From the IMG/VR virus record IMGVR_UViG_3300045391_003842, positions 51,789 to 115,788 of that record: a DNA stretch of 64,000 bases, one strand, 5' to 3'. Shown here piece by piece: positions 15,387-17,394 of this stretch. The DNA comes from a virus. The stretch's first letter is position 1, and each line of letters opens with the position of its first letter. The notes below the pieces were generated by a model that was not told where the DNA came from, searched no databases, and saw only the letters and a program-made list of their open reading frames with translations. The translations under genes and the position numbers were made by a program.

Positions 15387-15416
15387 TTGCACGACCGCGC
15401 AAAATGCGCGATATCT
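15387..15416 (+). promoter_or_regulatory. putative sigma70 promoter of the Y RNA-rsr unit
   Basis: TTGCAC...GCGATATC (alphaproteobacterial-type -10); predicted start near 15421-22 coincides with the 5' end of unit 1. Confidence 0.55.
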
Positions 15417-15421
15417 CCGCC

Positions 15422-15488
15422 TGTCGATAGCGTGAGCCCACGGATACTTCTGGCATGTTGTAAGCCCGTGAGCGATTAAACTTCGACA
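15422..15488 (+). ncRNA. Y RNA-like module 1 (short)
   Basis: terminal stem TGTCGA/TCGACA, TAGCGT motif, inner CACGG/CCGTG stem, ATACTTC motif. Confidence 0.7.
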
Positions 15489-15496
15489 ACAGTTTT

Positions 15497-15588
15497 CGCT
15501 GGATAGCGTAGAACTCGGTTGCATCGGTCTGATAAACCGTTACGGGCTTGCGCCCGTGGCACTGCCGGGATCGCCTAACCTTCCGGCG
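15497..15588 (+). ncRNA. Y RNA-like module 2 (two-hairpin cargo)
   Basis: CGCTGGA/TCCGGCG stem, TAGCGTAG, CGG-TTGCATC, hairpins CGGT-CTGATAA-ACCG and ACGGGC-TTGC-GCCCGT. Confidence 0.7.
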
Positions 15589-15597
15589 TTTGAATAT

Positions 15598-15734
15598 GTG
15601 GGTAGCGTATGTAGCGGTTACTTCTCAAAAACTTTGGGTCGGTGGTTCGAATCCACTTCTGTCATCTTCGGGTGGCGGGTAGCTCAGGGGTAGAGCAAAA
15701 GTCAAACAAGGTCCGTTGCAGTCTGATCTCCCAC
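15598..15734 (+). ncRNA. YrlA-like Y RNA with permuted tRNA domain (module 3)
   Basis: GTGGG/CCCAC stem, TAGCGTA, CGGTTACTTC; T arm GGTGG-TTCGAAT-CCACT precedes a loop-closed acceptor stem and the D arm GCTC-AGGGGTA-GAGC. Confidence 0.88.
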
Positions 15735-15769
15735 TTTTAGTTTGCGTATGGAGGTAGAACACGAAATAC

Positions 15770-15835
15770 ACTGGATAGCGTTAGATTGCGGTTACTTCTT
15801 TGGTGAACCACACCGTAGTCGATTGATCTTCCGGT
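15770..15835 (+). ncRNA. Y RNA-like module 4 (short)
   Basis: ACTGGA/TCCGGT stem, TAGCGTTA, GATTGCGG/CCGTAGTC, TTACTTC, TGATCT. Confidence 0.75.
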
Positions 15836-15842
15836 AGTAAAC

Positions 15843-15981
15843 GATGGATAGCGTAGAGAACGGTTACTTCGCATCTGGAGCGCGAGGTCGTTGGTTCGAG
15901 TCCAACTCCGTCCACCTTTCACGGGCGGGTAGCTCAGTCGGTAGAGCGCGTACTGTTACTGTTGTCGCCTGATCTTCCATC
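15843..15981 (+). ncRNA. YrlA-like Y RNA with permuted tRNA domain (module 5)
   Basis: GATGGA/TCCATC stem, TAGCGTAG, CGGTTACTTC; T arm GTTGG-TTCGAGT-CCAAC, acceptor TCCGTCC/GGGCGGG, D arm GCTC-AGTCGGTA-GAGC. Confidence 0.88.
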
Positions 15982-16017: not shown

Positions 16018-17394
16018 ATGCGCCTAAACCGAGCCGTCAAGCAGCCGCCGATCGTTACCCATGAGGGTGGTAAGGCCTCTCGTATCAATCTGGTGCAGCA
16101 ACTGCGCCGGTCTGTCCTCTCCTGCATGCTGTGGGAGAAGGAATTTTACGAGGATGGCGACACGATCTCTGCGCGGATCCGCAGCCTCATTCCTATGATT
16201 TCGCCGGCTGTCGTGTCGGCCCTGGCGATCGAGGCGCGCACCAAGTTTCATCTGCGTCATATCCCGCTGTTTCTGACCGCGGCGCTGGCGCAGACGGCTG
16301 CCGGCACGTCGATTGTGTCGGAGACGCTGAACGGTGTCATCCAGCGCGCCGACGAGTTGTCGGAATTTCTGACGATCTACGCGCAGATGAACGGCGTCGC
16401 GCCTGACAAGATCAAGCCGAAGCTGTCCAATCAGGTGCGCAAGGGCCTCGCGGCGGCCTTCGGCCGATTCGATGAATACCAGTTGGCCAAGTACAACCGC
16501 GACGCTGTGATCAAGTTGCGTGATGTGCTGTTTTTGTGCCACGCCAAGCCGAAGGATATTGCTCAGGCAGCGCTGTGGGAGCGGCTGATCAACGGCAAGA
16601 TCGCGGTGCCGGACACCTGGGAAGTCGCTTTGTCCGGGGGCGCCGACAAGAAGACCACCTGGGAGCGCCTGCTTGGCGCCAACCAGCTTGGTTACCTCGC
16701 TCTGTTGCGGAACCTCCGCAACATGCAGGAAGTCGGCGTGGACCCGAACCTGATTCGTGAGGCGATCTTGGCGCGTCGGGGCGGTGCTGATCGGGTGTTG
16801 CCGTTCCGGTTCACCGCGGCGGCTCGAGTCGTGCCGGCGTATGAGCCCGAATTGGATAAGGCCATGATGGCGAACATCATGGCGCTGCCGAGTCTGCCGG
16901 GCCGGACGGCGGTGCTGGTGGACGTCAGCGCCAGCATGGACGAGCGTCTGTCGGCGAAGTCGGATCTGTCTCGGTTGGATGCGGCGGCGACGCTCGCTTC
17001 CATGATAAACGCACAGGATCGTCGGGTGTTCTCGTTCTCGACACAGGTTGTGGAGGTGGCGCCGCGCCTGGGTATGGCCGGCGTGGATGCGATCCGGACC
17101 AGCCAAATTCACCATGGCACGCATCTGTTTGATGCGGTGGATCTGATCAATCGGACGGTACCGCATGACCGGCTCATCATCATCACCGATGAGCAGGCGA
17201 CCGGGGCGGTGGGTTTTGGCTACCGCCTGGGCGGGACGCTCCGGAGCATGCCGGCGCCGGCTTGTGATCATGGCTACGTGATCAACGTGGCGAGTGCGCT
17301 GAACGGCGTTGGATATGGTCCCTGGACTCATATCGACGGCTTTTCAGAGCAGGTGTTGCGCTGGATCGCGGAATACGAGGCCGCGGAGGTCTGA
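16018..17394 (+). CDS. rsr: Ro60/TROVE domain RNA-binding protein with vWA domain
   Basis: THEGG, LWEKEFYEDG, RADEL, FDEYQLAKY, LRDVLFLCH.KP, TWE..LS, ALLRNLRN, LPFRF, MIDAS DVSASM, IITDEQ; AGGAG RBS. Confidence 0.95.
   Translation: MRLNRAVKQPPIVTHEGGKASRINLVQQLRRSVLSCMLWEKEFYEDGDTISARIRSLIPMISPAVVSALAIEARTKFHLRHIPLFLTAALAQTAAGTSIVSETLNGVIQRADELSEFLTIYAQMNGVAPDKIKPKLSNQVRKGLAAAFGRFDEYQLAKYNRDAVIKLRDVLFLCHAKPKDIAQAALWERLINGKIAVPDTWEVALSGGADKKTTWERLLGANQLGYLALLRNLRNMQEVGVDPNLIREAILARRGGADRVLPFRFTAAARVVPAYEPELDKAMMANIMALPSLPGRTAVLVDVSASMDERLSAKSDLSRLDAAATLASMINAQDRRVFSFSTQVVEVAPRLGMAGVDAIRTSQIHHGTHLFDAVDLINRTVPHDRLIIITDEQATGAVGFGYRLGGTLRSMPAPACDHGYVINVASALNGVGYGPWTHIDGFSEQVLRWIAEYEAAEV

What the first reader, a model, noticed from the sequence alone, without database searches (positions are those of the whole stretch)
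15451..15879. Y RNA cargos present different anticodon-loop-like heptamers: possible decoys for host anticodon nucleases
Seen: unit 2 has the hairpin CGGT-CTGATAA-ACCG (15525-39), whose loop is a canonical tRNA-Ile(GAU) anticodon loop. In unit 3, the 7 nt in exact tRNA register (positions 32-38) before the anticodon 3' strand read CTCAAAA (15624-30; Leu CAA). In unit 5 the same register reads ATCTGGA (15873-79; U33-CUG-G37). Units 1 and 4 contain GTTGTAA (UGU) and TTGGTGA (GGU). All fit N-U-NNN-R-A. The picks for units 1 and 4 are post hoc: the pattern has about a 1/32 chance per position, so those two are weak. Inference: the array could display a panel of anticodon mimics on Ro60 to titrate tRNA-cleaving defences (PrrC/RloC, PARIS, VapC-type) or tRNA-modifying enzymes.
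Basis: partly seen in the sequence, partly recalled or inferred. Interest (0 to 1): 0.8.

Follow-up and report, generated by a model that had tools for sequence, protein, structure and literature searches.

The report
Phage Y RNAs displaying tRNA anticodon arms
A phage carries five small Y RNAs in front of its Ro60 gene, and one (perhaps two) of them displays a convincing copy of a tRNA anticodon arm, a feature that recurs with many different "anticodons" in about a hundred related loci and may let phages interfere with enzymes that read or cut tRNA anticodon loops.

Summary
All five heptamers are at the stated coordinates, but only two stand up. Unit 5 (ATCTGGA, 15873-79) is the 7-nt loop of a real anticodon arm. 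Unit 2 (CTGATAA) caps a 4-bp hairpin. Unit 3's CTCAAAA is in tRNA register but is not a loop, because its 3' neighbour pairs with the strand after the D arm, as in canonical YrlA. The unit 1 and 4 picks are at chance level.

In 96 non-redundant homologous cargos from 88 loci, U33 is kept in 84, R37 in 84 and A38 in 78. Positions 34-36 show 24 different triplets. A34 is avoided and G37 goes with G36, as in real tRNAs.

New here: covariation shows a composite anticodon stem. Pairs 27-43 and 28-42 use the two bases after the D arm, and pairs 29-31/39-41 use the 5' strand. The Ro60-binding stem is therefore inserted between 28 and 29 of a complete, closed-acceptor tRNA body. Published work calls this hairpin a "variable arm" and says YrlA lacks an anticodon loop.

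The decoy function is untested. The triplets are free to vary but do not demonstrably vary faster than neutral sites.

This scan has noted similar anticodon-displaying RNA arrays beside Ro60-like genes in other phages.

The parts
15387..15415 (+). Possible promoter of the array (TTGCACG, 14 nt, GCGATATC), about 7 nt before unit 1
   Evidence: Read. The resemblance to the Caulobacter housekeeping promoter consensus is from memory. The sigma-70 scan found none. Weak.
15422..15488 (+). Y RNA unit 1: shared scaffold (AGCGUG .. CACGG-AUAC-UUC / CCGUG .. ) with a small cargo (GGCAUG..). Not anticodon-like.
   Evidence: The cargo type recurs as UGCAUAG-like in other loci.
15497..15588 (+). Y RNA unit 2: scaffold plus a three-way junction with an anticodon-arm-like hairpin and a GC-rich UUGC hairpin (15544-59)
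   Evidence: MFE fold (z = -2.2). Scaffold repeats.
15525..15539 (+). Unit 2 hairpin CGGU-CUGAUAA-ACCG (C32 U33 GAU A37 A38)
   Evidence: Identical loop in full tRNA-mimic units L153, L206, L219, L241, L249.
15598..15734 (+). Y RNA unit 3: canonical YrlA-type tRNA mimic without an anticodon loop. 'Anticodon stem' 15631-35 with 15698-15702. T arm 15641-57. Closed acceptor 15658-64/15673-79. D arm 15682-96.
   Evidence: Rfam YrlA 30.2 bits, full-length match but below the gathering score of 69. 5/5 pairing with the strand after the D arm.
15624..15630 (+). Unit 3 heptamer CUCAAAA: in tRNA register but on the 5' side of an internal loop, not a closed loop
15770..15835 (+). Y RNA unit 4: scaffold with a small cargo UUUGGUGAAC. 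Not anticodon-like.
   Evidence: The UGGUGAA cargo recurs in L029, L051, L077, L125.
15843..15981 (+). Y RNA unit 5: scaffold carrying a complete tRNA body. T arm 15890-15906. Closed acceptor 15907-13/15923-29 (7/7 pairs, 9-nt loop). D arm 15932-47.
   Evidence: Rfam YrlA 31.9 bits and tRNA 27 bits..
15870..15884 (+). Unit 5 anticodon arm. Stem strand 29-31 (CGC 15870-72), loop A32-U33-CUG-G37-A38 (15873-79), stem strand 39-43 (GCGCG 15880-84). Followed by variable loop AGGUC 15885-89.
15949..15950 (+). Unit 5 bases 27 and 28 of the composite anticodon stem: C15949-G15884 and G15950-C15883
   Evidence: Covariation in homologues: 42 pairs with this position in 82/83 cargos with all four Watson-Crick types. 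By the tool count on 110 unselected units: GC 46, AU 32, CG 16, UA 6.
16018..17394 (+). rsr: Ro60 orthologue (TROVE + vWA), 458 aa, probably co-transcribed with the array
   Evidence: Pfam TROVE 6e-19. PHROG 850 'RNA-binding protein' 4.6e-46.

Best explanation
The 560-nt stretch upstream of the phage rsr gene encodes five Y RNAs of the YrlA family. They share one Ro60-binding scaffold and carry different cargos.

Unit 5 carries a whole tRNA look-alike: T arm, acceptor stem closed by a loop (so it cannot be charged), D arm and a genuine anticodon arm. The scaffold is spliced into the 5' strand of the anticodon stem between positions 28 and 29, so the arm is a composite helix built from both strands. 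Unit 2 shows a smaller free-standing anticodon-arm-like hairpin. Unit 3 is a classical YrlA mimic with no anticodon loop. Units 1 and 4 carry unrelated small cargos.

Shown by sequence comparison: the arm exists, is kept by compensatory changes, and obeys tRNA loop rules (Y32, U33, no A34, R37 coupled to base 36, A38), while the triplet differs between units and phages.

Inferred: Ro60-bound, non-chargeable tRNA bodies with defined anticodons are offered to proteins that read anticodon loops. The most likely role is as competitive decoys for host tRNA-cutting defence nucleases. Modification enzymes are an alternative target.
For: Array and scaffold. rsr. YrlA-like matches.

In-register stem: 40 cargos have 5/5 pairs at the tRNA register, against 1-9 at shifted registers.

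Loop frame in 96 cargos from 88 loci: U33 84, R37 84, A38 78, A34 4, 24 triplets. G36/G37 coupling has odds ratio 43; per distinct triplet it is 8/9 against 1/15.

Independent replication on metagenome loci: U33 24/27 and R37 26/27, against U33+R37 in 4/20 where there is no stem.

Covariation on 126 and 110 units not selected for pairing: pairs 29-41, 30-40 and 31-39 have 23-46 double changes. Pairs 42-28 and 43-27 with the post-D strand are 92% paired with 54 and 18 double changes. The local U28-42 alternative has none and 33 mispairs.

Closed acceptor: at least 6/7 pairs in 74/83.

U33 differs at 0.00-0.06 per site between loci, against 0.45-0.72 for the triplet.

Gene finders take these units for tRNAs: ARAGORN, and GenBank annotates tRNA-Gln in CcrColossus and tRNA-Ser in phage Gurke.

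Functional leads from papers: PMC7790460 (competitive-inhibitor idea for YrlA) and 10.1101/2024.10.10.617714 (a phage Ro60-like protein counters a defence system).
Against: There is no experimental datum on expression, Ro60 binding, modification, cleavage or phenotype.

The nearest-neighbour model prefers a different local hairpin for unit 5 (ACUUCGC/GCGAGGU with a 9-nt loop, -46.9 kcal/mol) over the composite fold (-39.5 kcal/mol).

The triplet varies about as fast as the acceptor strand (0.40-0.65 per site), so diversifying selection is not shown.

Same-triplet frequency is flat against acceptor divergence, so lineage and convergence cannot be separated.

Only 1-2 of the 5 units in this window show the feature.

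The same architecture is found in bacterial contigs, whose prophage status was not checked.

The held 115.8 kb of the phage has no tRNA genes, RtcB or Rnl2 ligase.

In Salmonella, YrlA was not cut by the SOS-induced anticodon nuclease (PMC7790460). That fits an inhibitor but proves nothing here.
Confidence: 0.4

Rival explanations
1. Evolutionary leftover kept for folding. YrlA RNAs are thought to descend from a tRNA dimer. The hairpin would be the anticodon arm of the first tRNA, retained because a stable U-turn hairpin helps the tRNA-like core fold or stack. The triplet itself would have no role.
For: The dimeric-tRNA origin model is cited in 10.1101/312249. The 5' half of unit 5 scores 27 bits with the Rfam tRNA model, and ARAGORN such units. 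Triplets vary no faster than acceptor-stem sites. Many related units, including unit 3 here, do without the arm.
Against: A folding role alone does not predict avoidance of A34, the G36-G37 / U36-A37 coupling, or A38. The stem's 5' strand is fixed by the scaffold motif, so the loops are not fresh copies of tRNA genes. The frame is kept across Rsr proteins only 45-60% identical.
Confidence: 0.25
2. Effector tether rather than decoy. As in the Rsr-Y RNA-PNPase machine, the tRNA body with its anticodon arm would recruit a specific tRNA-binding protein to Ro60, to act on other RNAs. Candidates are a modification enzyme, a synthetase, a ligase or an exonuclease.
For: Y RNAs tether Ro60 to PNPase in Deinococcus (background in PMC4201824). 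Wang et al. predict a tRNA-binding effector for YrlA (10.1101/312249). The 36-37 coupling matches the determinants of position-37 modification enzymes (enzyme specificities are from general knowledge).
Against: One effector would not need 24 different triplets. The commonest triplet, GCU (Ser), belongs to a tRNA whose synthetase does not read the anticodon (general knowledge). No candidate effector gene lies next to the array.
Confidence: 0.2
3. They are real tRNA genes or precursors. Processing would release working, possibly split or permuted, tRNAs.
For: tRNA calls by ARAGORN and in GenBank records. CcrColossus unit 4 has ACCA after the acceptor 3' strand.
Against: The acceptor stem is closed by a 2-9 nt loop in most units and is better paired (7/7 here) than the alternative with the 5' strand. 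ARAGORN finds no tRNA in the window or in the whole record. The scaffold with the Ro60 motif and the position beside rsr are constant.
Confidence: 0.05
4. Chance resemblance: the heptamers are picked out of unrelated loops.
For: This is true for units 1 and 4, and consistent with chance for unit 3.
Against: For unit 5 and its class, the shifted-register controls, the replication set and the covariation exclude chance.
Confidence: 0.03

Closest known systems
YrlA-type bacterial and phage Y RNAs (Rfam RF02553; Chen et al. 2014, PMC4201824; structure 6CU1, Wang et al. 2018, 10.1101/312249)
   Same: Encoded next to rsr. 5'/3' stem with a GNCGAA-like motif. Conserved YUAY (UUAC here). T arm, closed acceptor-like stem and D arm. 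Several Y RNAs per locus. [quoted passage not shown]
   Different: The literature calls that stem-loop a variable arm ('V') and states that YrlA lacks the anticodon loop. Here it sits in anticodon-arm register, has a 7-nt loop with tRNA loop rules, and its stem is completed by the two bases after the D arm. The Rfam score is far below the gathering score (30-32 against 69 bits). There are five units in a row.
Deinococcus radiodurans Yrn1
   Same: Chen et al. 2014 model a potential 'anticodon arm' with a 5-bp stem in this Y RNA.
   Different: The loop there is 6 nt, the arms are oriented differently and there is no V arm. No repertoire of triplets is described.
Canonical tRNA (Rfam RF00005)
   Same: All four arms, a class I variable loop AGGUC, a U33/R37 loop, and 36-37 coupling.
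   Different: The acceptor is closed by a loop with no free CCA end. The chain is interrupted between 28 and 29 by the Ro60-binding stem. Score 27 bits against a gathering score of 29; ARAGORN makes no call in the window.
Phage-encoded tRNAs that escape or replace tRNAs cut by host defences (T4 PrrC repair, T5 and PARIS, mycobacteriophage tRNAs; from general knowledge, not read here)
   Same: A phage-borne answer to attacks on anticodon loops. Repertoires differ between phages.
   Different: Those are working tRNAs that restore translation. These RNAs cannot be charged and would act, if at all, by competition.
Handle-tagged tRNA-mimic RNA arrays beside Ro60-like (DUF2828) genes noted earlier in this scan (e1-5642392, e1-5790181, e1-5899216)
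   Same: Arrays of small RNAs with one shared handle that display anticodon arms, next to a Ro60-like gene in phages.
   Different: A different handle (7-bp stem + ACAGCAA) and a different protein family. Those are AI notes and were not re-tested here.

Membership tests
YrlA-type Y RNA | Encoded adjacent to an rsr/Ro60 (TROVE) gene | tested here: met
   The array ends 37 nt before rsr at 16018.
YrlA-type Y RNA | 5'/3' stem with the GNCGAAN0-1G Ro60-contact motif near the 5' end | tested here: inconclusive
   The stem is present in all five units. The motif reads AGCGUAG/AGCGUGA here and GGCGUAG/GGUGAAG in homologues. It is similar but not exact, and binding was not tested.
YrlA-type Y RNA | Conserved YUAY followed by T arm, closed acceptor-like stem and D arm | tested here: met
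   Met for units 3 and 5. Units 1, 2 and 4 have YUAY but no T or D arm, like YrlB-type partners.
YrlA-type Y RNA | Reaches the Rfam RF02553 gathering score (69 bits) | tested here: not met
   30.2 and 31.9 bits.
YrlA-type Y RNA | Bound by Rsr in vivo and modified by TruB/DusA | not testable with these tools
   Needs immunoprecipitation and modification mapping.
tRNA anticodon arm (mimic) | 5-bp stem and 7-nt loop placed 5 nt before the T stem | tested here: met
   Unit 5: composite stem of 5 Watson-Crick pairs, loop 15873-79, AGGUC, T arm. Unit 2: 4 bp and no T arm. Unit 3: not met.
tRNA anticodon arm (mimic) | Loop rules: Y32, U33, wobble base not A, R37 matched to base 36, A38 | tested here: met
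   Family level. Unit 5 has A32 (15/96 have A32), U33, C34, G36-G37 and A38. Unit 2 has C32, U33, G34, U36-A37 and A38.
tRNA anticodon arm (mimic) | Stem kept by compensatory changes | tested here: met
   The slid controls give 30-56% paired, against 82-92% for the proposed pairs.
tRNA anticodon arm (mimic) | Stacks under the D arm in an L-shaped fold; loop exposed | not testable with these tools
   Pairs 27-43 and 28-42 made by the post-D strand argue for it. No 3D test is available, and the MFE disagrees.
Functional tRNA gene | Free acceptor end able to carry CCA and an amino acid | tested here: not met
   The acceptor is closed by a loop. ARAGORN finds none in the window or the record.
Anti-defence decoy for anticodon nucleases | Binds or inhibits a tRNA-cutting nuclease; loss gives a host-dependent plating defect | not testable with these tools
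   Literature leads only (PMC7790460; 10.1101/2024.10.10.617714).

The most novel reading that the evidence does not exclude
Phage and prophage Ro60 particles carry a small library of complete, non-chargeable tRNA bodies. Their anticodon loops are tuned to the tRNA species attacked by the host's anticodon nucleases, so the displayed triplets would report which tRNAs a host defence targets. The Ro60-binding handle is grafted into the anticodon stem between 28 and 29, giving a modular 'plug-in' design that lets any anticodon arm be shown on the same scaffold.
Probability: 0.3. Interest if true: 0.85.

Novelty: new variant of a known kind. Interest (0 to 1): 0.7.

Why it matters
The effector side of bacterial Y RNAs has been an open question since 2014. 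The tRNA-like domain is known, but what it binds and why it mimics tRNA are not.

If many YrlA-type RNAs carry a full anticodon arm with real tRNA loop grammar and a varied but restricted set of triplets, the partner is likely to read the anticodon loop. That turns a vague idea into concrete experiments: cognate nuclease competition, modification mapping and loop swaps. Tractable systems exist, namely Caulobacter phage CcrColossus, Xanthomonas phage Sopo and Brevundimonas phage Gurke.

There is also an annotation problem. Gene finders call a good share of these units as tRNA genes, which inflates phage tRNA counts.

Tried and rejected
- Rfam at gathering thresholds and ARAGORN found nothing in the window. 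Only the permissive Rfam search showed the sub-threshold YrlA and tRNA matches.
- No near relative of this phage was found. The best Rsr identity is 60-62% in IMG/VR, GTDB genomes and metagenomes. The unit 1, 2 and 4 cargos have no BLAST match elsewhere, so conservation of those three heptamers could not be tested directly.
- My first regex for whole units missed the window's own motif variant and undercounts units per array. I therefore make no claim about array sizes beyond the examples read by eye.
- I considered claiming diversifying selection on the triplet. I dropped it because a held-out control (acceptor strand 66-72) varies as fast.
- I considered claiming that arrays avoid repeating a triplet. 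No repeats were seen, but only about 6-10 arrays have two or more such units, which is not significant.
- I considered that triplet lineages are conserved. Same-triplet frequency does not depend on acceptor divergence, so this is undecided.
- A fully local 5-bp stem (27-31 from the 5' strand) was my first model. It is replaced by the composite stem.
- The first MAFFT alignment (A2) put gaps inside the arm and was not used for counts.
- The plasmid collection held no Rhizobium etli rsr locus with which to re-read the published 'V' example.
- The Sim & Wolin reviews and the supplement of Chen 2014 are not held, so an earlier description there cannot be excluded.

Full report
**Context.** The window is the 3' 64 kb of a 115.8-kb IMG/VR phage record, estimated 76% complete. 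It encodes a tail sheath, baseplate, portal and major head protein. At 16018-17394 (+) lies a Ro60 orthologue with TROVE and vWA domains (Pfam; PHROG 850). A terminator follows the upstream gene at 15324-55. Between that terminator and rsr lie five units that share a scaffold. The 5' part reads GGAUAGCGU .. CGG-UUAC-UUC and the 3' part reads CCG .. CG.UUGAUCUUCC. All five fold as a long stem with internal loops and a variable apical cargo. They are Y RNAs of the YrlA kind. Rfam's YrlA model matches units 3 and 5 at 30.2 and 31.9 bits, well below its gathering score of 69. The conserved UUAC corresponds to the YUAY of Chen et al. 2014 (PMC4201824).

**The observation.** Their standing differs.
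- Unit 5 (ATCTGGA, 15873-79) lies 5+5 nt before the T stem, is closed by a stem and is followed by AGGUC. This is the exact tRNA register.
- Unit 2 (CUGAUAA) caps a 4-bp hairpin in the MFE fold.
- Unit 3 (CUCAAAA) is in register but has no 5' stem partner. Its 3' neighbour ACUUU (15631-35) pairs 5/5 with AAAGU (15698-15702) after the D arm, as in canonical YrlA. The heptamer is therefore one side of an internal loop.
- The unit 1 and 4 picks match a pattern expected once per 32-50 positions. Their cargos belong to recurrent small types (GCAU.., UGGUGAA) that do not vary.

**Homologous arrays.** Caulobacter phages CcrColossus and CcrPW carry about eight such units before their TROVE gene. I fetched loci around Rsr homologues of 45-62% identity: 99 from IMG/VR, 80 from GTDB genomes and 77 from metagenomes. 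I then listed every T arm (5-bp stem, TTCRANN loop) within 1.5 kb upstream of rsr that also had the YUAY-UUC motif within 60 nt upstream. The distance from that motif to the T stem peaks sharply at 17-19 nt. That is the length needed for an anticodon arm plus a 5-nt variable loop.

- In the tRNA register, 40 of 184 non-redundant cargos have 5/5 local pairs, against 1-9 in registers shifted by 1-4 nt.
- In the pooled 96 cargos with at least 4/5 pairs (88 loci), the counts are Y32 81, U33 84, R37 84 and A38 78. A34 occurs 4 times, one of them ACG, the only bacterial A34 anticodon to my knowledge. There are 24 distinct triplets.
- G37 goes with G36 (20/26 against 5/70). Per distinct triplet the figures are 8/9 against 1/15. 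This is the pattern of real tRNAs, not what a merely stable loop requires.
- The metagenome loci, de-duplicated against the first set, serve as a replication. U33 is 24/27 and R37 is 26/27 with a stem. U33+R37 is 4/20 without one.
- Between loci, U33 differs at 0.00-0.06 per site, like the invariant T-loop bases, and the triplet at 0.45-0.72.

So "U33/R37 conserved, triplet varies" is confirmed for this cargo class. The acceptor strand 66-72, held out from pair selection, varies just as fast (0.40-0.65). I therefore do not claim positive selection on the triplet. Whether the same triplets recur by descent or by convergence is undecided.

**Structure.** I counted pairs on 126 units chosen only by motif-to-T distance (alignment A3). 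Pairs 29-41, 30-40 and 31-39 show 25, 46 and 46 double changes. Pairs 27-43 and 28-42 made with the invariant UU of the scaffold show almost none and many mispairs.

The reason emerged. Base 42 pairs with the second base after position 26 downstream of the D arm in 82 of 83 cargos (C-G 16, G-C 29, A-U 29, U-A 7). Base 43 pairs with the first such base in 81 of 83. The tool count on 110 unselected full-length units (A4) agrees. For 42-28 it gives GC 46, AU 32, CG 16, UA 6 and 54 double changes. For 43-27 it gives 18 double changes. The helix is 92% paired, against 30-45% for slid controls. The all-local alternative is worse.

The anticodon stem is therefore composite. Bases 27-28 come from the 3' strand, as in a normal tRNA after the D arm. 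Bases 29-31 come from the 5' strand. The Ro60-binding stem joins between 28 and 29 through short linkers.

In unit 5 this gives five Watson-Crick pairs: C15949-G15884, G15950-C15883, C15870-G15882, G15871-C15881 and C15872-G15880. It also removes the apparent U-C mismatch. The acceptor stem is closed: 7/7 pairs here, and at least 6/7 in 74/83 homologues, with loops mostly of 2-9 nt.

One caveat applies. The nearest-neighbour model prefers a local hairpin ACUUCGC/GCGAGGU (-46.9 against -39.5 kcal/mol). The comparative evidence, not the energy, carries the argument.

**Relation to the literature.** Chen et al. [quoted passage not shown] Wang et al. 2018 state that YrlA lacks the anticodon loop, and they cite the dimeric-tRNA origin model. 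I found no paper in the held library that reads this hairpin as an anticodon arm, notes its loop rules or describes the composite stem. The Sim & Wolin reviews and the 2014 supplement are not held.

The functional idea is not new in outline. Hughes et al. 2020 suggested that the YrlA tRNA-like domain might competitively inhibit an anticodon nuclease. The PhageMaP preprint reports that the Ro60-like gp130 of phage Bas63 counters the Ppl defence, and it suspects that neighbouring "tRNA" genes are Y RNAs. This scan has also noted anticodon-displaying RNA arrays beside Ro60-like genes in other phages. Those notes were not re-tested here.

**Mechanism.** The following is shown: Y RNA scaffold, a complete closed-acceptor tRNA body, and a composite anticodon arm with tRNA loop grammar and varied triplets. 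The following is inferred: the RNP offers these bodies to proteins that read anticodon loops.
- A decoy or competitive inhibitor of host tRNA-cutting nucleases best explains the several features together. These are non-chargeability, many specificities, differences between related phages (CUG in CcrColossus against UAG in CcrPW at the same unit), and the phage or prophage setting. I give it about 0.3-0.4.
- Rivals are a folding relic of the tRNA-dimer ancestor (0.25), a tether for a tRNA-binding effector (0.2), real tRNA precursors (0.05) and chance (0.03, but true for units 1 and 4).
- The held part of the phage record has no tRNA genes, RtcB or Rnl2-type ligase.

**Verdict.** The finding is partly right in its details (units 5 and 2 yes; units 3, 1 and 4 no) and right in its core. 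It leads to a concrete structural variant of YrlA-type Y RNAs that appears to be undescribed. The function remains open.

Noticed in passing
L001:1506-1573 (CcrColossus) and L262:2221-2295 (Brevundimonas phage Gurke): GenBank annotates these as tRNA-Gln and tRNA-Ser. They are the 5' halves of Y RNA units (scaffold 5' strand + anticodon arm + T arm + acceptor 3' strand). ARAGORN likewise of 69 such units as tRNAs, so phage tRNA counts near rsr genes are inflated.
   Followed up: partly
L017:2700-2830: One unit has the tRNA parts in normal order after the scaffold motif: hairpin, D arm, anticodon arm CUUCG-CUUACAA-CGAAG, AGGUC, T arm. The handle can therefore be grafted at more than one point of a tRNA body.
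   Followed up: no
L001:1565-1615: In CcrColossus unit 4 the acceptor 3' strand is followed by ACCA and a 24-nt extra hairpin before the acceptor 5' strand. It looks like a remnant of a tRNA 3' end plus spacer, as the dimeric-tRNA origin model predicts.
   Followed up: no
window 15387-15415: TTGCACG, a 14-nt spacer, then GCGATATC. This resembles the Caulobacter-type housekeeping promoter (from memory) and would start transcription at about the first base of unit 1. The generic sigma-70 scan found nothing.
   Followed up: no
window 15866-15889 and homologues: The invariant scaffold word ACUUC is complementary to G43 plus the variable loop (GAGGU). This gives an alternative hairpin that the energy model prefers. 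It could be a switch or just coincidence.
   Followed up: partly
96 homologous cargos: Displayed triplets are skewed. About 57% end in U (tRNAs for ANN codons: GCU, GAU, GUU, UGU, UUU, CUU, UCU, CAU) and about 29% end in G. Triplets ending in C are nearly absent. This was not corrected for shared ancestry.
   Followed up: partly
window 15770-15835 and 15422-15488; L029, L051, L077, L125, L001:1095-1175: Two small cargo types recur across distant arrays: UGGUGAA (as in unit 4) and UGCAUAG/GGCAUG, often followed by a GGGC-UUCG-GCCC hairpin (as in unit 1 and CcrColossus unit 1). Their role is unknown.
   Followed up: partly
L261:950-1600 (Xanthomonas phage Sopo): This 44-kb cultured phage has a four-unit array before its rsr, including a GUU-displaying unit with the composite stem. 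It would be a small, tractable system for experiments.
   Followed up: partly
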